Shown: positions 4,566 through 45,050 of the stretch, one piece after another
Position numbering within the stretch: position 1 is the first letter of the stretch
Layout of the letters: each line of letters opens with the position of its first letter
Origin: the human T2T-CHM13v2.0 reference genome, Homo sapiens
DNA length: 64,000 bases
Direction: 5' to 3' (one strand)
Assembly: GCF_009914755.1 (NCBI RefSeq)
Contig: NC_060945.1
Position numbers and translations under genes: made by a program
The notes under the pieces: model-generated
What the model saw: the letters and a program-made list of their open reading frames with translations, nothing else
The model's database searches: none
What the model was told of the DNA's origin: nothing

Positions 4566-4621
4566 TATGATAAAAGAAAAGCACAGTAGGTAGGTATGAT
4601 AAAAGAAAAGCACAGTAGGTA
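4566..4621. repeat. Exact 27-bp tandem duplication (period 29)
   Basis: tatgataaaagaaaagcacagtaggta at 4566-4592 and 4595-4621. Confidence 0.95.
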
Positions 4622-34677: not shown

Positions 34678-35560
34678 ATATTCATGCTTAGTTTCCTACT
34701 TGCTTGTAATCATTCAATCCAATAGTAAGAATTTTAATGAATTATTCTCCCTTTGCTATCTTCTAGTTTATTCACATGTTCCCTCAGAGGTTTAGGTGTT
34801 TTTTTTTTTTTTTGTTTTTGCCTTTTGGTCTTTTCTTTTCTTTTTAATTTTTTTTTTTGTTTTCTTACTTTTTATTTATTTATTTTTTTGGAGAGCCAAT
34901 AGATAATATATATTTTTAAATTTATTGCAATAGCTTTAGGGGTACTAGTGGTTTTGGTTACATGGTTGAATTGAATAGTAGTAAAGTCTAAGAATTTTAG
35001 TGCACCTGTCACATGAGTAGTGCACGTTGTACCCAACAGGTAGTTTTTCATCCCTCACCTCCCTCTAGTCCTCCCCACTTCTAAGTCTCCATTGTCCATT
35101 TTACCACTCTGAATGCCTTTGTGTATCCATAGCTTAGCTCCCACTTATACATGAGAACATGCAGTATTTGGTCTTTTATTGCTGAGTTACTTTACTTAGA
35201 ATAATGGCCTCCAGTTCCATTCAAAGTTGCTGCAAAAGACATTATTTCATTCCTTTTTATGGCTGACTAGTATTCCATGGTGTATATGTATAACACATTT
35301 TCTTTATCCACTCATTGGTTGATAGGCACTTAGGATGTTCCCATATCTTAGAAACTGTGAATTGTGCTGTGAGAAGCATACACATACAGGTGTCTTTTGG
35401 ATATAGTGACTTCTTTTCCTTTGGGTAAATACCCAGCACTGGGAGTGCTGGATCAAATGATAGATCTACTTTTAGTTCTCTGAGAAATCTCCATACTGTT
35501 TTCCATAGAGGTTGTACTAATTTACATTCCCACCAGCAGTGTATAAGAATTCCTTTTTGC

Positions 35561-35885
<325 letters not shown>

Positions 35886-37808
35886 TCATCACATCCATGC
35901 CAAAATCTATTGCTTTTGACTTTTTAGTAATGGCCATTCTGGCTGGGGTAAGGTGGAGTCTCATTGTGGTTTTAATTTGCATTTTCCTGATAATTAGTGA
36001 TTTTTTTTCCATACATTTGTTGGCCATCTGTATTTCTTCTTTTTAGAAATGTACATTCATGTTATTTGCCCATTTTTAAATGGGATTATTTGTTTTTTTT
36101 CTTGCTGATTTGTTTGAATTCCTTATAGATTCTGGATGTTAGTCCTTTGTCGGATGCATAATTACAAATATTTTCTCCCATTCTACAGGTTGTCTGTAGA
36201 TTATTTCTTTTGCTGTGCAGAAGCTTTTTAGTTTAGTTAGGTCTCACTCACTTCTTGTTGTTTTTGTTGCATTTGTTATTGGGCCACAGTCATGAATTCT
36301 TTGCTTAGGTCAACGTTCAAAGGAATTTTTCCTAGGTTATCTTCTATAATTTTTATGGTTTCAGGACTTAGGTTAAAATCTTTAATCCAGCTTGAGCTAA
36401 TTATTGTGTATGGTGAAAGATAGACAGAGATTCAGCTTCAATTGTCTACATGTGGCCATCCAATTTTCCCAACACCATTTATTGAATAGGGTATCTTTTC
36501 CCCAATTTATGCTTTTGTATGCTTTGTCAAAAATTAGTTGGTTTTAAGTATTTGGCTTAATTTTTGCATTCTCTATTCTGTTCCACTGGTCTATGTATCC
36601 ACTTTTACATCAATACCATGCTATTTTGGTTAGGATAGCCTTGTATAATTTGCAGTCAGGTAATGTCATGCCTCTGGATTTGTTCCTTTGGCTTCAGATT
36701 GCTTTGACTATTTGGGCTCTTATTTGGTTCCCTGTGAATTTTAGGATTGTTTTGTCTAATTCTGCATTAGATCTGTAGATTGCTTTGAGAAGTATTGTCA
36801 TTTTCATGATATAGATTCTTCTAATTCATGAGCATGGAATGTATTTCCATTTGTTTGTGTCACCTATGATTACTTTCAGCAATGTTTTGTAGTTCTCCTT
36901 GTAGCAATCTTTCACCTCCTCAGTTAAGCGTATTCCTAGGTATTTGATTTAATTTTTTTTAGCTATTGTGAAGGGGACTGTATTCTTGATTTAATTTAAT
37001 TCTCTGCTTGGTCTTGCTGGTATATAGCAGTGCTACTGATTTGGGTACATTGATTTTGTAATATGAGACATTTCTGAATTTGTTATTCAGATCTAGCAGT
37101 CTTCTGGAGGTATCTTTAGAGTTTTCTAGGTATAAGACAATATTATCAGTAAACAGAGACAGTCTGACTTCCTCTTTTCCAATTTGGATTCCTTTTATTT
37201 CTTTCTCTTGTCTAATTGTTCTGACTAGGACTTCCAGTACAATGTTGATTAGAAGTGGTGAAAGTGAGCATTCTTGTCTTGTTCCAGTTCTTAGGGGGAA
37301 TGCTTTCAATTTTCCCCACATAGTATGATGTTGGCTGTGGGTTTGTCATATATAGCTTTTATTATTTTTAGGTATGTTGCTTGTATGCCTAGGTTTTGAG
37401 GGTTTTTATTGAAAAGGGATGCTGGATTTTAACTAACGCTTTTTCTGCCTCTATTGAAATTACCATGTTGTTTTTGTTTTAGTTCTATTAGTGATGAATT
37501 ACATTTATTGACTTGTGTACGTTGACTCACCCCTGCATCCCTGGAATGAAATCCACTTGATCATGATGATTATTTTTTAGGATGTGCTTTTGGATTTGGT
37601 TTGCTAGTATTTTATTGAGAAATTTTGCATCTATATTCATCAAGGACATTGGTTTGCAATTTTCCCTTTTTTTTTTTTTTTATGTCCTGACTTTTGTATC
37701 AGGGCAATATTGACTTCATAGAATAAATTAGGGAGGATATTTTCTTTCTCAATATTTTGGAATATTTTCAGTAAAATTGGCACTAATTCTTCTTTGACTG
37801 TCTTGTAG

Positions 37809-38147
<339 letters not shown>

Positions 38148-39773
38148 AAGCTTATTTTTTTGTTGGCAGTTTTTTCATTATTGATTCAGTCTCACTGCTT
38201 GTTATTGGTCTGTTCAGGATTTTGATTTATTTCTGATTCAAGCTAGAGGGGTTATATGTTTTTAGGAATTTATCCATTTCCTCTGGGTTTTCTAGTTTGT
38301 GTGCACAGAGGTGTTCATAATAGACACAAATGACCTTTTGTATTTCTGTGGTGTCAATTGTAATGCCTCCATTTTCATTTCTAATTGAGCTTATTTGAAT
38401 CTTTGCTTTATTTTCTTCATTAATCTAGCTAGTGGTCTATTAACTTTATTTTTTTAGAGAACAAACTTTTTGTTTCTATAATCTTTTGTATTTTTTTGTT
38501 GCAATTTTGTTTGGTTTTGCTCTGCTCTTTGTTATTTCTTTTCTTCTGCTAGCTCTGGGTTTGGTTTATTCTTGTTTCTCTATTTCCTTGTGGTGTGACA
38601 TTAGGTTGTCAGTTTGTGATCTTTTCGACTTTTTGACGCAGACATTTAGTGCTACAAACTTTCCTCTTATCACTTCTTTTGCTTTATTCGAAAGATTTTG
38701 ATAATGTGTCACTTATCATTCATTTTGAAAATTATTTACATTCCCATATTCATTTCATTGTTAACCTAACAATCATTCAAGAGTGGATTTTTTCAATTCC
38801 ATGTATTTGTATAGTTTTGTGGGTTACTTTTTGAATTGATTTCTAATTTTATTCTGCTGGGGTATAAGAAGATACTTGATATGATTTTGATTTTTAGGAT
38901 ATATTGAGACTTTTTTAATGGGCCACTATGTGGTCTATCTTGGAGAAAGGTCCATGTGCTGATGAGAAGGATGTGTATCCTGTAGTTCTTGGGTAGAATG
39001 TTCTGTAAATGATTCTTACATTCACTTGTTCTAGAGTTCAGTTTAAGTCCTGTGTTTATTTGTTAAGTTTCTGCATTGATGATCTGTCTAGTGCTGTCAG
39101 TGGAGCGTTGAAGTACCCCACTATTACTGTGTTGCTGTCTATCTCTTTTCTTAGGTCTAGTAGTAATATTATGAATCTGGGAGCTCCAGAGTAAGGTGAA
39201 TATATTTTTAGGATTGTCATATCTCCTTGTTGAATTGATCCTTTTATCATTATAACTTTCTTTGTCTTCTTTTAACTGTTGTTGCTTTAAGGTTTGTTTT
39301 ATATGATGTAAGAATAGCTATTCCTGCTCATTTTTAGTTTCCATTTGTGGGAAATATCTTTTTCCAATCTATTACCTTGAGTCTACAAGAATCCTTACAT
39401 GTTAGGTATGTCTCCTGAAGACAGCAGATATTTGGTTTGTAATTTTTTCTATCCATTCTGCCAATTTGTATCTTTTAAGCAGAGCATTTAGACCATTTAC
39501 TTTCAACACTAATATTGAGATGTGACATACTGTTCCAGTTATCACATTGATTATTACCTAGTGACTTTGTTTTATTTTTTGTGTTATTGTTTTATAAGCC
39601 CTGTGAGTTTTATGCTTTCAGGAGTTTCTATTCTGGTGAGCATCAACCTTTTGTTTCAAGACTTAGAACTAATTTTAGCATTTCCCGTTGGGCTGGTCTA
39701 GTATTGACAAATTTTCACATCATTTGCTAATCTGAGAAAGTCTATTTCTCCTTTACTTATGAAACTTAGTTTT

Positions 39774-39965
39774 TAAAATTTTTTTAAAGTTTTATTTTAG
39801 TTTCAAGTGTACATGTGCAGGTTTTTTCTATACATAAATTGCATGTTGTGGAGGTTTGGTGTACATATTATTTCATCATCCAGGTAATAAGCATAGTACC
39901 CAAGAGGCAGTTTTTCAATCCTCCCTCTCCACCATCTACCCTCAAGAAGGCCCCAGTATCTATTG
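39774..39965 (-). mobile_element. Short L1PA15/16-like 3' end nested in L1PB
   Basis: TSD tgaaacttagtttt/tgaaactcagtttt; same family as 46008-46360. Confidence 0.85.
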
Positions 39966-41589
39966 TGAAACTCAGTTTTGTTGGGTACAAAATTCTAAGC
40001 TGATAGTTATTCTGTTCATGGAGACTAAAGATAAGACCCCAGTTCCTTTTTGCTTGTAAGGTTTCTCAGAGAAAGAATAGATTTTCCTTTACAGGTTACC
40101 TGATGCTTTTGTCTCACTGCTCTTAGAATTCTTTCCTTCATGTTGAATTTAGATAGTCTGAAGAATATATGCATTGGTGGTGTCCTTTTTGCCATGAACG
40201 TCCCAGGAGTTCTTTGAGCTTTTTGTATTTGGATGTCTAAATCTCTAGCAAGGTCAGGGAAGTTTCCCTCAATTATTCCTTCAAATAGGATTTCCAAACA
40301 TTTTGCTTTTTATTCTCCTTCAGGAAACCAGTGATTCTTAGGTTTGGCTATGTTACATAATCCTATATTTCTTGGAGACATTTTTCACTTCTGATTCTTT
40401 TCTTCTTATTTTTGTCTGATTATGTTAATTGAAAAGTCTTTCCTTTGAGTTCTGAAATCTTTTCTTCTACTTGGTGTAGTCTATAGCTAAAATTTTCCAC
40501 TGCATTTCATAGTTCCCTAAATGTATCTTTCATTTCCAGAAATTATAATTGGTTTTTCTTAAAATATCTCTTTAGAACATTTTTCATTCATATCCTGAAT
40601 TGTATTTTTAAATTTATTTATGTTGGTTTTCACCATTCTCTTGTATTCCCTTGAATAACTTAATAATCAACCTTTTGAATTCTGTGTCGCAGATTTCAAA
40701 GATATCATCTTGGTTTGGCTCCACTGTTGGGAGTAAATGTGATATTTGGGGCTGATATAGAACCCGATTTTTTCATATTGCCAGAATCATTTTTCTTGTT
40801 CCTTCTCATTTACTTACTTTTTTTCTAATTATTTTTGAATTTACTTTTTATTTGACTGGGTTTTAAATTTTTGTTCCCCCTTGAGGATGAGACTTTAACA
40901 TTTATAAGCTGTTGTCATCTACCTTTGGCTGTAGGTGTTTTCAGTGGTGAAGACTTTGTGTGAGTTTTCAGTTGTAGAAAATCTTTGTGTGATGAATTGC
41001 TCTGATGAGGATTTAGTAATGATATGCTGGATGTGTGAGCAGATTCACTGTCTCCTGTGGGGCTGAAGTGGCAGAGGTCTCAGGAAGCTTATCTCATTTC
41101 CCAGTGGTGTGCACTTTTATAAATGTTTTCCCCACTGTTTTACTCACTGGGTTGAACAGTTCAGGCTTTGGGCCATTAGGAGGTGCCCATGAGGAAAAAC
41201 TGGCCAAGGATAAAGCAGATGGGTAAGTTCAATACCCCAGTGGTGACCAGAGGTCCCAGCTGGGGAATCTCTCAGTGAAATGCACTGAGGTCTTTTCAGA
41301 AGGAAGGGAGAAAGCCACCATACCTCCCCTTCAGGAAATTCATCCCAGTTACACTCTTGACCCCATGTTCCAGCTACTCAGATTAGACAAGCACCTCTTT
41401 ATCTGCTTCATGTAGACAGGGATGGTGACTCTACGTCTTGTGCAAGCCAAGCCTGAATCAAGGGCGCTCCTACTGTGGGGATGCATCCTGCAGTGTTCCA
41501 GAAAGGCTGTCTACGGATGCACCCATGCTAAGCTCCCATGGGAGACATTCAGCTATGTCTGGAGTGGCAGACGCGGGGGAGAAGAAATC

Positions 41590-42141
41590 AGTATTAGGGT
41601 TCTCTAAAGAAGCAGAACTAATAGGATATATGTATATAAGAAAGGGAGTTTATTAGGGAGAATTGACCCACATGATCACAAGGTAAAGTCCCATGATAGG
41701 TCATCTGCAAGTTGAGGAGCAAGGAAGCCAGTGGTGGATCAGTCCAAGTCCCAAAACCTCAAAAGTAGGGAAGCCGACAGTGTGGCCTTCAGTCTGTTGT
41801 TGAAGGCCTGAGGGCCCTGGCAAACCACTAGTGTAAGTCTAAGAGTCCAAAAGCAGAACTTGCAGTCTAATGTTTGAGGGAAGGAAGCATCCAGCACAGG
41901 AGAAAGATGAAGACCGGAAGACTCAGCAAGTCAGCTCCTTCCACCTTCTCCTGCCTGCTTTATTCTAGCTGCATTGGCGGCTGATTAGATGGAGCCCACC
42001 TAGATTGAGGGTGGGTCTGCCTCTCCCAGTCCACTAACTCAAAGGTTAATCTCTTATGGCAACACCCTCACAGACACACCCAGGAGCAATAATTTGCTTC
42101 CTTCAGTCCAATCATGTTGACACACAGTATTAACCATCACA
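41590..42141 (-). mobile_element. MLT2A ERVL solo LTR nested in L1PB 5' UTR
   Basis: gtattagggttctct...cagtattaaccatcaca; near-TSD aaatc/aagtc. Confidence 0.9.
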
Positions 42142-42754
42142 AAGTCCCCTTCTCCAAGACTGTTCATGAGCACCAGGGCTGCCTAACCGTTGAGGTAGAC
42201 CCCACAAACTTTCCACACTGAGTCCAGCACTGCTGCTGTGACTGCTGAAAGAAACTTTCCACAGTGAAAAGGTAGGGACCCAAGGCCTGAAGTCTGGTTT
42301 CTTTTGTCCCATGGAATGCTCCCTTAATGTGGTACATTCCCTCTTTTTCTAGGAGTAGCAGTCCCTGAGCACCAGCCTACTGTGACTCCTGCTGCTCCTC
42401 TGGGTCTAACCACCCAGTGGGGCTGCCATACTTTGATGCTGGGAATGTCTACAAGGGATCGAGTGATGTGACCTGTCCTTCAAGTCTCCCAGCACCAGAT
42501 CTGATAGGGGTGAGAGAGGAGTCATGTAGATTCTGTGAGATTCCTTGGTTATAAATAGCCTTAGTGTTGTGGCCTTCACAAATGCCAGCTGTACTGGTCA
42601 TGTAGACAGATTCAACACCTCCTGGTTAGCCAGTGTGACCACAGTCATGTTAGTCTCTATTCAAACTGGGGTTGCACAGAAGTTTTCTCCTTTGTGAGCA
42701 TGATGTTAACGGAACCGGCTGATATTGTATTGGGTTGTGTCATTTAACCTCTAG

Positions 42755-42768
42755 CCAGGAGGTGGCGC
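42755..42768 (+). promoter_or_regulatory. Candidate CTCF motif in L1 5' UTR
   Basis: CCAGGAGGTGGCGC; motif match only. Confidence 0.45.
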
Positions 42769-43837
42769 CTGCGAAAGACCACAAGCTGTGATAGCAGCAG
42801 TGGAATTTTTGCTTTTGCTTGCCTTTTGTTACCCAAGGAGGTGCTCTGGTGTTTGAAGTGATGTGTGGGGCCACGGAACTTTCAAATGTCTCTATCCATT
42901 GTGTTACCCTACAAGGACAGGTGGAGAAGCAAAGCCCGGCGGGGGTGGGTCAGGCCGTCTGTGCTCTGGCTTCCCATGTGGAGTCACAAGCAGCTGCCCC
43001 AGTGGAAATCAGAGGTCAGTTCCCCGGCCCCTGGGGTAATGTTCCACAGAGCAGCACAGCTGCTTCTGTTGCACAGAAGAATCCACATGGGGAGTGAAGT
43101 GTAGCAGGTGGCGGTAAGCCCCACTCTGCTCCCACACACTTGGCAAGGCAGGTCTCACATCAGCAGTGTTCTGCTAGCAGCAGCTTGCTGGGTTCCAGGC
43201 AGCCTGCAGTCAGAACTTCAGATTGCCCCAGGCCATAAGCTTTCCTGACCAAGACAGAAACTGGGCTTTCAGGCCACATTCATGAAGCAGAGGCCCTCAG
43301 CTTCTGTGCCTGTGGCTACAGCACACTTCCCAGTTACCCCTCAGTTCTGGCCGATGGGGTTCATCTCCGCTGAAGATTATATCGCAAATCTCAGTTGGGA
43401 GCTTCTCTCAAAATGTGACTGCCACCTGAGTTAGCTGGCAGACTTCTGCGATCTTCCCTGTGAGATAGGGTGAGGAATGGCTTCCCTCTGTCCCTGCTGG
43501 GGCCTGGGAGAACATGCAAAGCTGTCCAAATGCTGCTCCTTCTCATATGTTCCCCACCACCCACTAAATCAGTTCCAATTCTAGATAGAGTTAAGGCCTC
43601 CCCCCGTGGCCTGGATTGCTGGGATCTTCCATGGCAGTGTTTGTCATGGTGGCATTCTCTCCCCCTTCACACTCTGGAGGCTCACAGTTTTCCACCTGGA
43701 CCATGGTATAGGCTGCTGCCCAGCACTTCTTTCAAACGGTCTGTGATTTTATTCAGCTTTTCTAAGTTCCCGTGTTGCTTCTTGGAGAAAAGTTCACAGC
43801 GTGAATCTCTGTATTTTGTCTGTCCACATGGGCTGTC

Positions 43838-43873
43838 TTAAAATTTGTGATGTCATCTCCATATGGGATGAAG
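43838..43873 (-). repeat. Perfect 36-bp inverted copy of 44870-44905 (templated insertion)
   Basis: ttaaaatttgtgatgtcatctccatatgggatgaag is the reverse complement of cttcatcccatatggagatgacatcacaaattttaa. Confidence 0.95.
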
Positions 43874-43924
43874 CATGGAGGCAGGCTAACAATGCCTCCA
43901 ATTTGCTATGGGGGGGAGAAAACT

Positions 43925-44180
43925 ATTTTTAAAATTTTTAATGAACACATAATTGTACATATTTATGGGGAGCAATGTTATATTTCAACACATGTATACA
44001 TTGTGTAGTTATCAAACCAGGGTATTTGACTGTTCATCACTTCCGATATTTATCACTTCTTTTTGGTGTAAACATACAAAACCCTTTCTTCTGGCTATTG
44101 ATATATACAATGCCTTATTGAGAACCATAGTCAACCTACTGTGAAATAGGACAACAGAATATATTCTTCCTTTGGGTGTT
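43925..44180 (-). mobile_element. L1MA 3' end
   Basis: ataattgtacatatttatgggg...catgtatacattgtgta. Confidence 0.75.
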
Positions 44181-44335
44181 ACTTCTTTTTAAAAAAATAT
44201 AAGTTGAATTTAATCTTTATTAAAGTCTTGACAGTAGAGCACTTATTAGGGATGCCAACCAGAGCTGGTAACTCTGTGGTAGGGTTTGAGGGAAGGTGTG
44301 AAGCCCCTCTTTCTCAATAATATCTGAATCACAGG

Positions 44336-44749
44336 TTTCACGCGTGTCTGTGTGAAGAGACCACCAAACAGGTTTTGTGTGAGCAACAAGGCTGTTTATT
44401 TCACCTGGGTGCAGGCAGGCTGAATCCAAAAAGAGAGTCAGTGAAGGGAGATAGGGGTGGGGCCGTTTTATAGGATTTGGGTAGGTAAAGGAAAATTACA
44501 GTCAAAGGGGGTTGTTCTTTGGCAGACAGGGGTGGGGGTCACAAGGTGCTCAGTGGGGGAGCTTTTTGAGCCAGGATGAGCCAGGAGAAGGAATTTCACA
44601 AGGTAATGTCATCAGTTAAGGCAGGAACAGGCCATTTTCACTTCTTTTGTGGTGGAATGTCATCCGTTAAGGCAGGAACCGGCCATCTGGATGTGTACGT
44701 GCAGGTCACAGGGGATATGATGGCTTAGCTTGGGCTCAGAGGCCTGACA
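44336..44749 (-). mobile_element. HERV-H LTR7 solo LTR
   Basis: Minus strand tgtcaggcctctgagcccaagctaagcc...cacgcgtgaaa; TATAAAA, AATAAA and internal direct repeats present; perfect TSD ACAGG. Confidence 0.96.
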
Positions 44750-44884
44750 ACAGGCACTTGAAATTTCCCAATAAGAATCTTTTTTTTTTTTTTGGTCACA
44801 GTCATGTTAGTTTCTATTCAAATTCTTCCTTCTCTATCCTTCCTTCCTGCCCCATCATCCTCCCCATCCCTTCATCCCATATGG

Positions 44885-45050
44885 AGATGACATCACAAAT
44901 TTTAATGTACATAGGAATCACTGGGGTGGTTTATTAGGAATGCACGTATCTGGGCCTCAGCTCTAAGGATTCCAGTTCTGTATGGGCTTAGGGTGGGACT
45001 CGGAATCTGCATTTTTACTAGACCTTATTTCACGCTAATGCAGGCTTACA
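44885..45050. mobile_element. MER5A/B hAT-Charlie MITE
   Basis: gaatcactgggg...aatgca...ctgggcc...gggtgggactcggaatctgcatttt. Confidence 0.7.

What the first reader, a model, noticed from the sequence alone, without database searches (positions are those of the whole stretch)
42634..44905. Cluster of locally templated insertions in the L1 5' UTR, all copied from one ~240-bp donor beside the LTR7
Seen: three short segments in the L1PB 5' UTR match a donor window at 44663-44905, 1-2 kb away. They are a 36-bp perfect inverted copy (43838), a 26-bp direct copy with a 7-bp fold-back (42634) and a probable 14-bp fold-back snippet (42706). Established: short templated insertions with template switching are the signature of polymerase-theta end joining or microhomology-mediated break-induced replication. 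Inference: this is a germline fossil of either one multi-switch repair event or a recurrent break/donor contact, possibly favoured by open chromatin at LTR7. High identity implies it is much younger than the host L1.
Basis: partly seen in the sequence, partly recalled or inferred. Interest (0 to 1): 0.8.

Follow-up and report, generated by a model that had tools for sequence, protein, structure and literature searches.

The report
Two nearby-copied patches in L1
An old L1 retrotransposon on human chromosome 21 carries two short foreign patches copied from one 109-base stretch of unique DNA 1 to 2 kb away, a scar of error-prone DNA repair or replication of a kind already known.

Summary
A perfect 36-nt inverted copy (43838-43873 of 44870-44905) and a 25/26 direct copy (42640-42665 of 44797-44822) are far above chance. 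Each occurs only at these two places in the whole genome. Both lie in the 5' UTR of a minus-strand L1 (about 34799-43915). They are absent from 19 of 19 and 24 of 24 informative genomic L1 copies. A blind scan of the 5' UTR found no other anomaly of this kind.

The true donor is 109 nt of single-copy DNA (44797-44905), 47 nt beyond a solo LTR. The two donor pieces sit either side of a 47-nt spacer in a pyrimidine-rich tract.

The 14-nt "snippet" at 42706 is at chance level. The 7-nt "fold-back" is inconclusive.

Identity of 61/62 makes the patches much younger than the L1.

Best reading: templated insertions made by template switching, probably one multi-switch replicative event (MMBIR/FoSTeS-like). 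Polymerase-theta end joining and two separate events remain open. No role for the LTR is shown. Orthologues and haplotypes could not be examined. This is a new example of a known kind and of moderate interest.

The parts
34799..43915 (-). Host element: an old full-length L1 on the minus strand. Its T-rich tail is at about 34799-34890 and its 5' terminus at about 43915. Younger repeats interrupt it.
   Evidence: Collinear blastn to two full-length genomic L1 copies from 34905/34934 to 43832. Tail read. The 5' end was fixed by alignment with 19 copies, which end in ...GCCATCTTGG followed by their own flanks.
42640..42665 (+). Acceptor 1: a 26-nt direct copy of 44797-44822 (25/26). It replaces about 17-18 nt of L1, for a net gain of 9 nt.
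   Evidence: D3; E = 7.5e-7. Absent from 24 of 24 informative L1 copies. Only two places in the genome. Flagged blind as a low-agreement stretch, 42634-42679.
43833..43876 (+). Acceptor 2: a 44-nt pure insertion about 40 nt inside the L1 5' end. It reads CTGTC + 36-nt inverted copy (43838-43873) + CAT. The short fillers repeat the 12 nt just upstream (CTGTC-CA-CATGG, 43820-43831).
   Evidence: I1; E = 2.2e-14. Absent from 19 of 19 L1 copies, and L1 sequence resumes collinearly after it. Flagged blind. Fillers read.
44797..44822 (+). Donor piece A, the template of the direct copy. It starts 3 nt after a T14 run (44780-44793).
44823..44869 (+). Uncopied 47-nt spacer between the donor pieces. It is part of a 58-nt tract (44823-44880) that is 88% pyrimidine on the + strand.
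   Evidence: Only 2 places in the 64-kb window are this strand-asymmetric; the other is the L1 tail.
44870..44905 (+). Donor piece B, the template of the inverted copy.
   Evidence: 44796-44960 is otherwise single-copy in the genome.
44336..44749 (-). Solo LTR lying between the L1 and the donor, with an intact 5-nt target duplication ACAGG (44331-44335 and 44750-44754). The names LTR7/HERV-H and the strand are my recollection and come from no call.
   Evidence: 39 other copies listed at 93-95% identity with sharp ends at query 37 and 450, 3260 first-look candidates, and same-strand pairs about 5.3 kb apart. Target duplication read.

Best explanation
After the L1 had already diverged, newly made DNA at two points in its 5' UTR was copied from another template instead of the L1. 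That template was a 109-nt stretch of unique DNA 1.0-2.2 kb downstream.

- At 42640, about 17 nt of L1 were replaced by 26 nt copied in direct orientation.
- At 43833, 44 nt were inserted: 5 nt and 3 nt that repeat the immediate flank, around 36 nt copied in inverted orientation.
- The donor stayed intact.

I take this to be one complex replicative repair event with about five template switches (MMBIR/FoSTeS-like). It visited the two sides of the donor tract on opposite strands and each time returned to the L1.

Shown: the patches are foreign to L1, unique in the genome, near-identical to a contiguous donor, and young.

Inferred: the direction of copying, one event rather than two, the enzymes involved, and germline origin.

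My odds: templated insertion by template switching, about 0.85. A single multi-switch event, about 0.55. A replicative MMBIR-like route over polymerase-theta end joining, about 0.55 against 0.30.
For: 1. The copies are not chance: E = 2.2e-14 and 7.5e-7 within the window.
2. Such copies are rare. With a gapped flank test there were 0 isolated exact repeats of 20 nt or more, 60-5000 nt apart, in 147,242 nt of 40 background loci. The window had 1, which is this 36-mer.
3. They are not an L1 feature. They are absent from 19 of 19 and 24 of 24 informative copies.
4. There is no third locus. Each sequence occurs only twice genome-wide.
5. A blind column scan of 42140-43960 against 19 copies found only three window-specific insertions of 4 nt or more. 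Two of them are these patches; the third is a 6-nt tandem duplication. The only low-agreement stretches are the two patches and the L1 end.
6. Direction. A and B are contiguous in the donor, 47 nt apart, while in the L1 they interrupt otherwise collinear L1 sequence 1172 nt apart. The reverse direction needs extra unexplained insertions in the L1 (inference).
7. Youth. Identity is 61/62, against about 75-77% pairwise identity for the L1 copies.
8. One event. If a second independent event chose its template uniformly within about 5 kb, the chance of landing within 100 nt of the first is roughly 0.04 (my rough arithmetic).
9. Complex germline templated insertions with several templates and both orientations are in print (PMC8421209, passages read).
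Against: - No orthologue or second haplotype was available. The ancestral state of donor and acceptors, the timing and the single-event claim are therefore inferred.
- Microhomology at the four long-range junctions is slight (0-3 nt by eye) and was not tested against chance.
- There is no copy-number change or larger rearrangement of the kind that usually accompanies MMBIR/FoSTeS.
- The flank-derived fillers (CTGTC, CAT) and the deletion-plus-insertion at 42640 look as much like polymerase-theta end joining of two breaks.
- The one mismatch may be a copying error, so the age could be near zero.
- The 95% interval of 1/62 (0.04-8.7%) does not exclude an age like that of the LTR (P = 0.14 at 5.5% pairwise divergence).
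Confidence: 0.55

Rival explanations
1. Two independent repair events (for example polymerase-theta end joining of two separate breaks in the L1 at different times) each used the same nearby stretch as template. This could happen because the stretch is habitually close in space or often single-stranded.
For: - The junction types differ: deletion plus insertion at 42640, but pure insertion with flank-derived fillers at 43833.
- The 26-mer has one mismatch and the 36-mer none, although this difference is not significant.
- The donor abuts a T14 run and an 88% pyrimidine tract. Poly(dA:dT) tracts are enriched around short-range template-switch sites in apes (PMC7954356, passages read).
Against: - It needs a coincidence of about 0.04 (my rough arithmetic) or an unproven standing contact.
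- Template distances of 1.0 and 2.2 kb exceed the 'immediate vicinity' described for theta-mediated insertions (PMC7368036 passage).
- No other patch from this donor, or from any other local donor, is seen in the L1 5' UTR.
Confidence: 0.25
2. Reverse direction: the L1 sites are the sources, and the unique stretch at 44797-44905 received two small copies 47 nt apart.
For: The geometry is formally symmetrical, and no outgroup was available to show that the donor is ancestral (searches show only that it is single-copy).
Against: - The L1 would then have had to acquire a 44-nt insertion of unknown origin. It would also need a 9-nt insertion plus a dense cluster of changes. Window identity to the other copies is only 0.31 at 42640-42654, against 0.56-0.62 in the flanks (these means include 3 copies that do not cover the site).
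- This makes four events instead of one or two.
Confidence: 0.05
3. The patches are not inherited old changes. They are either private to the source of this assembly (a recent germline, somatic or cell-line mutation) or an assembly error.
For: - Only one genome was examined.
- At 61/62 identity the age can be near zero, since the one mismatch could be a copying error (interval).
Against: - Nothing in the sequence suggests misassembly. The region is collinear L1, and the LTR has intact target duplications.
- A private origin would change the dating, not the mechanism.
Confidence: 0.1
4. Chance similarity, or shared membership of a repeat family.
For: None for the 36-mer and the 26-mer. It does hold for the 14-nt snippet.
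Against: E-values, genome-wide uniqueness, no flank homology, and absence from all compared L1 copies.
Confidence: 0.01

Closest known systems
MMBIR/FoSTeS template switching, including MMB-TI (MMBIR-linked templated insertions; Osia et al. 2021, PMC8421209, passages read)
   Same: [quoted passage not shown]
- Both orientations occur.
- Several templates can contribute to one event (up to five reported).
- Such events are found as germline variants without large rearrangement.
   Different: - The MMBSearch signature is an inverted copy whose template lies within 100 bp of the insertion. Here the templates are 996 and about 2130 nt away.
- One copy here is direct.
- The copies sit at two acceptor sites 1172 nt apart.
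- No copy-number change accompanies the event, unlike classic FoSTeS/MMBIR cases.
Short-range template-switch mutations, four-point model (Loytynoja & Goldman 2017, PMC5453318; Loytynoja 2022, PMC9435742; Walker et al. 2021, PMC7954356; passages read)
   Same: - A switch-and-return event leaves a reverse-complement copy of nearby sequence and creates a perfect inverted repeat.
- There is an association with poly(dA:dT) tracts.
   Different: - The model explicitly leaves out long-range and multi-round switching.
- The search is limited to tens to hundreds of nt, and one filter discards distances over 250 bp.
- Here the T14 run is at the donor, not at the departure point.
- The 26-nt copy here is direct.
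Polymerase-theta-mediated end joining (TMEJ) templated insertions
   Same: - A deletion with a templated insertion at 42640.
- Very short fillers that repeat the immediate flank at 43833 (CTGTC, CAT).
   Different: - Reported templates lie in the immediate vicinity of the junction (PMC7368036 passage).
- From my recollection, typical lengths are a few to about 30 nt.
- Here 26 and 36 nt come from 1-2 kb away.

Membership tests
Templated insertion (generic) | The inserted sequence is absent from the ancestral state | tested here: met
   The test is by proxy. 19 of 19 and 24 of 24 informative paralogous L1 copies lack the patches. True orthologues were not available.
Templated insertion (generic) | An identical or near-identical template exists elsewhere and is retained | tested here: met
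   36/36 and 25/26 identity to 44870-44905 and 44797-44822. These are the only other places in the genome.
Templated insertion (generic) | Microhomology at the switch points | tested here: inconclusive
   By eye 0-3 nt at the four long-range junctions. Not tested against chance. The L1's own pre-event sequence is unknown.
MMB-TI signature (MMBSearch) | An inverted copy of at least 10 bp with its template within 100 bp of the insertion | tested here: not met
   The 36-mer is inverted but 996 nt from its template. The 26-mer is direct and about 2.1 kb away. Definition taken from a PMC8421209 passage.
Four-point short-range template switch | A reverse-complement copy with switch points within tens to hundreds of nt (up to 250 bp in one filter) | tested here: not met
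   The distances are 996 and about 2130 nt, and one copy is direct. Limits taken.
FoSTeS/MMBIR complex rearrangement | Several template switches over kilobase or larger distances, in either orientation | tested here: met
   Two long-range excursions, one direct and one inverted, plus local fillers.
FoSTeS/MMBIR complex rearrangement | An accompanying copy-number change or larger rearrangement | tested here: not met
   The L1 is collinear across both sites. The LTR has intact target duplications. No inversion or duplication is present beyond the patches.
Polymerase-theta end joining | Dependence on POLQ | not testable with these tools
   This needs genetics. Sequence alone cannot assign the polymerase.
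Polymerase-theta end joining | A template in the immediate flank of the break | tested here: not met
   Not met for the 26- and 36-nt pieces, which come from 1-2 kb away. Met only for the 5-nt and 3-nt fillers at 43833-43837 and 43874-43876.
L1 (host element) | Collinear homology to genomic full-length L1 copies, with a T/A-rich tail | tested here: met
   No repeat library was available. The best genomic 5' UTR matches are only 74-77% identical.
   414 nt, 93-95% identical to the 39 other copies listed. Same-strand pairs about 5.3 kb apart on two chromosomes. ACAGG duplication. The family name itself is recalled, not tested.

The most novel reading that the evidence does not exclude
One low-processivity replication-restart track ran through the L1. 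It twice sent its 3' end 1-2 kb ahead to the two opposite strands on either side of a T14 run plus an 88% pyrimidine tract, and returned each time.

That would mark such non-B-prone, often single-stranded stretches as kilobase-range 'template hubs'. It would also point to a class of kilobase-range switch-and-return scars without copy-number change. The published detectors I read about cannot see such scars, because they limit the template to 100-250 nt from the insertion.
Probability: 0.2. Interest if true: 0.6.

Novelty: new member of a known kind. Interest (0 to 1): 0.35.

Why it matters
Templated insertions are the clearest sequence scars of error-prone break repair and fork restart.

- **A well-defined case.** The host is a repeat with many genomic copies, which stand in for the ancestral state. 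The donor is unique. Both the insertion and its source are therefore unambiguous without an outgroup.
- **A usable search rule.** Small switch-and-return copies can come from 1-2 kb away, beyond the 100-250 nt searched by the tools whose passages I read. The rule this suggests is: non-consensus patches inside repeat copies that match unique DNA within a few kb.
- **Limits.** It changes no principle, and no gene or annotated element is affected.

Tried and rejected
- **Inversion with duplicated breakpoints** (for the 36-nt inverted pair). Rejected, because L1 sequence is collinear on both sides of the insert and the LTR and its target duplication are undisturbed.
- **L1 5' junction filler, 5' transduction or twin priming.** Rejected. 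The L1 continues about 40 nt beyond the insert to its normal 5' terminus, it has its own tail, and the copies are far younger than the L1.
- **Subfamily-specific L1 sequence.** Rejected by the genome-wide searches.
- **Third snippet and LTR as donor.** Rejected as chance.
- **Homeology between donor A and the replaced L1 segment as a guide for the switch.** Only about 7-10 of 16 positions match, depending on gapping. Not pursued.
- **Hairpins as triggers.**
  - Acceptor 1 lies 5 nt after the left arm of an L1-internal inverted repeat (42616-42634 with 42746-42764). The single-strand DNA fold has z = -2.47, and 2 of 200 shuffles fold as well.
  - Acceptor 2 ends at the foot of a small hairpin at 43878-43899. 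That fold has z = -1.80, and 12 of 200 shuffles fold as well.
  - The donor has no structure (z = +0.64).
  - The result is suggestive only, and the geometry fits acceptor 2 better than acceptor 1.
- **Wider base-rate scan** of 400 kb of flanking chromosome. I used the 147 kb of loci already held instead.
Full report
**1. What is there**

- 43838-43873 is the exact reverse complement of 44870-44905 (36 nt, 996 nt between the arms).
- 42640-42665 repeats 44797-44822 in direct orientation (25 of 26, start-to-start 2157 nt).
- In a blastn of 44600-45000 against the whole 64-kb window, these are the only non-trivial hits besides an LTR-internal 31-nt repeat and T-runs. Their E-values are 2.2e-14 and 7.5e-7.

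**2. Anatomy of the neighbourhood**

- The host L1 lies on the minus strand. Two full-length genomic L1 copies align collinearly from 34905/34934 to 43832.
- A T-rich tail lies at about 34799-34890.
- The alignment gaps are younger insertions. One is a 547-nt dispersed repeat at 41596-42141. Two others I read as Alu from recollection.
- The L1 5' terminus is at about 43915, where 19 other copies end in their common terminal sequence followed by unrelated flanks.
- To the right lies an old dispersed repeat fragment on the + strand, about 43924-44173. I recall it as an L1-type 3' end.
- Then comes unique DNA, and then a 414-nt solo LTR at 44336-44749. The LTR is 93-95% identical to the 39 other copies listed, from 3260 first-look candidates. 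It has an intact ACAGG duplication on both sides.
- After the LTR come 30 nt of unique DNA, a T14 run (44780-44793), and then the donor.

**3. The patches are foreign to L1**

- Acceptor 2: all 19 of 19 aligned L1 copies lack 44 nt that the window has at 43833-43876. L1 sequence resumes collinearly afterwards.
- Acceptor 1: 8 of 8 informative copies and 16 of 16 read a shared 17-18-nt L1 segment where the window has the 26-mer. The sets do not overlap. One further copy diverges from 42638 on and is uninformative. The net gain is 9 nt.
- A blind column scan of 42140-43960 against the 19 copies found only three window-specific insertions of 4 nt or more. They are 9 nt inside the 26-mer, a 6-nt tandem duplication at 42807-42812, and the 44 nt.
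- The only 24-nt stretches with 45% or less agreement with the majority base were 42634-42679, 43820-43888 and the L1 end at 43910-43946. Overall agreement was 78.7% over 1821 positions.
- So the two anomalies of this L1 5' UTR are exactly the two stretches that match the donor.

**4. They are not a repeat family or a subfamily trait**

- In the whole 3.1-Gb genome, 43833-43932 and 44796-44960 each match only themselves and each other's 36-mer, at E up to 10.
- The 26-mer pattern with up to 2 mismatches occurs at these two places only. The reversed control gave 0.
- The tool warns that counts of repeats are lower bounds and that common words are skipped.

**5. Such pairs are rare**

I looked for exact repeats of 20 nt or more, 60-5000 nt apart, non-simple, and with no alignable flanks.
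- The 64-kb window has one, which is this 36-mer.
- 147,242 nt of 40 loci from elsewhere in the genome have none.
- A cruder ungapped test listed 17 pairs in the window. By my reading of their sequences, all but the 36-mer and a 27-nt tandem duplication at 4566-4621 are pieces of common repeats.

**6. What fails**

- The '14-bp snippet' at 42706 is TTAACGGA (inverted match to 44663-44670) overlapping GGAACCGGC (direct match to 44676-44684).
- It causes no length change against other L1 copies, and my scan did not flag it.
- Nine-mers are at chance level: 3 seen and 2.27 expected, with 91% of 500 shuffles having at least one.
- Composites of 14 nt or more, from two abutting matches of at least 7 nt with neighbouring donors, arise in 13 of 19 homologous L1 segments elsewhere and in 37 of 57 null chunks.
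- Nothing therefore shows copying from the LTR. The donor shrinks to 44797-44905 (109 nt).
- The '7-bp fold-back' is an 8-mer, 42634-42641, reverse complement of 44793-44800. It overlaps bases (GTGA) that other L1 copies already have there. I call it inconclusive.

**7. Junction detail (read)**

- Acceptor 2 reads ...CTGTC-CA-CATGG-G | CTGTC | 36-mer | CAT | GG-AGGCAGG... The fillers on either side of the 36-mer repeat the 12 nt just upstream. It looks as if the strand slipped back, copied 5 nt, left for the distant template, and came back a few nt behind where it had left.
- Acceptor 1 is a replacement: about 17-18 nt out, 26 nt in.
- Long-range junction microhomologies are 0-3 nt by eye. I did not test them.
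- Small L1-specific deletions lie nearby: 11 columns after 42592 and 5 after 43811. Five such internal deletions in about 1.8 kb make this weak evidence.

**8. Age**

- The copies and their templates differ at 1 of 62 positions (1.6%, 95% interval 0.04-8.7%).
- If the patches were as old as the L1 (pairwise divergence of copies about 23-25%), P(at most 1 difference) would be 1.8e-6 to 3.9e-7.
- At the LTR copies' pairwise divergence of 5.5%, P = 0.14.
- The patches are therefore much younger than the L1 and probably, but not provably, younger than the LTR.
- Because the polymerases in question are error-prone (established knowledge), the single mismatch could date from the event itself, so the lower age bound is zero.

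**9. Mechanism**

- Shown: two foreign, young, near-exact copies of a contiguous local template, one direct and one inverted, with the donor retained and no other rearrangement.
- This is the definition of templated insertion by template switching.
- I favour one multi-switch replicative event. Two independent events would have to choose templates 47 nt apart within several kb (about 0.04 by rough arithmetic). Complex germline events with several templates and both orientations are in print (PMC8421209).
- If one nascent strand made both patches, the templates were opposite strands on the two sides of the 47-nt spacer. The spacer lies in a 58-nt tract that is 88% pyrimidine, one of only two such places in the window, and it sits next to a T14 run.
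- That geometry fits lagging-strand templates of diverging forks. It equally fits the two resected sides of a break in the tract. This is inference only.
- Polymerase-theta joining of two breaks is the main alternative, given the flank-derived fillers and the deletion-insertion. However, its reported templates lie in the immediate vicinity of the junction (PMC7368036).

**10. Comparison with what is known**

I read passages, not whole papers.
- The four-point model explicitly leaves out long-range and multi-round switching (PMC5453318).
- Its search is restricted to tens to hundreds of nt (PMC7954356).
- One of its filters discards distances over 250 bp (PMC9435742).
- MMBSearch calls inverted copies with templates within 100 bp. 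It finds about 100 germline events of 25 bp or more per person, some with up to five templates (PMC8421209).
- Poly(dA:dT) tracts are enriched around short-range events (PMC7954356).
- Our case shares the process but lies outside those search ranges. One of its copies is direct, and it spreads over two acceptor sites.
- Long-range switching as such is the core of FoSTeS/MMBIR. So this is a new example of a known kind, not a new kind.
- Four literature searches turned up no catalogue of kilobase-range switch-and-return insertions without copy-number change. That is not proof that none exists. Supplements were not opened.

**11. Limits**

- No primate orthologues, other human haplotypes or reads could be consulted.
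- Direction, branch, single event against two events, and germline status therefore rest on parsimony.
- Repeat family names are recalled, not tested.

**12. Verdict**

- Novelty: a new member of a known kind. Interest: 0.35.

Noticed in passing
window 41596-42141: A 547-nt dispersed repeat is inserted in the L1. It is absent from two full-length L1 copies. It is 85-88% identical to the 39 other copies listed, from 4897 first-look candidates. The family was not identified.
   Followed up: partly
window 4566-4621: An exact 27-nt tandem duplication with 29-nt spacing. Apart from the 36-mer, it is the only isolated exact repeat of 20 nt or more in the window that is not part of a common repeat.
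   Followed up: no
window 42592/42593 and 43811/43812: The window's L1 lacks 11 and 5 columns that other copies have, 47 nt and 21 nt to the left of the two acceptor sites. They could be part of the same repair event or unrelated old deletions. There are five such internal deletions in about 1.8 kb.
   Followed up: partly
window 42616-42634 with 42746-42764, and 43878-43899: L1-internal inverted repeats sit next to both acceptor sites. The first has a 19-nt stem around a 111-nt loop that holds acceptor 1 (DNA fold z = -2.47). The second is a small terminal hairpin that starts just past the end of the acceptor 2 insertion (z = -1.80 for its 146-nt context). Similar motifs are visible in other L1 copies.
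   Followed up: partly
window 42807-42812: A 6-nt tandem duplication (TTTTGC) specific to this L1 copy. It lies between the two acceptor sites.
   Followed up: no
window 44331-44335 and 44750-44754: The solo LTR has a perfect 5-nt target-site duplication, ACAGG. The pre-insertion sequence can therefore be read straight across it.
   Followed up: yes
window 34799-44749: The masked-repeat list supplied with the finding covers almost none of the L1 body, the 547-nt repeat or the LTR. All of these have hundreds to thousands of first-look genomic candidates. The 19% masked figure therefore greatly understates the repeat content here.
   Followed up: partly
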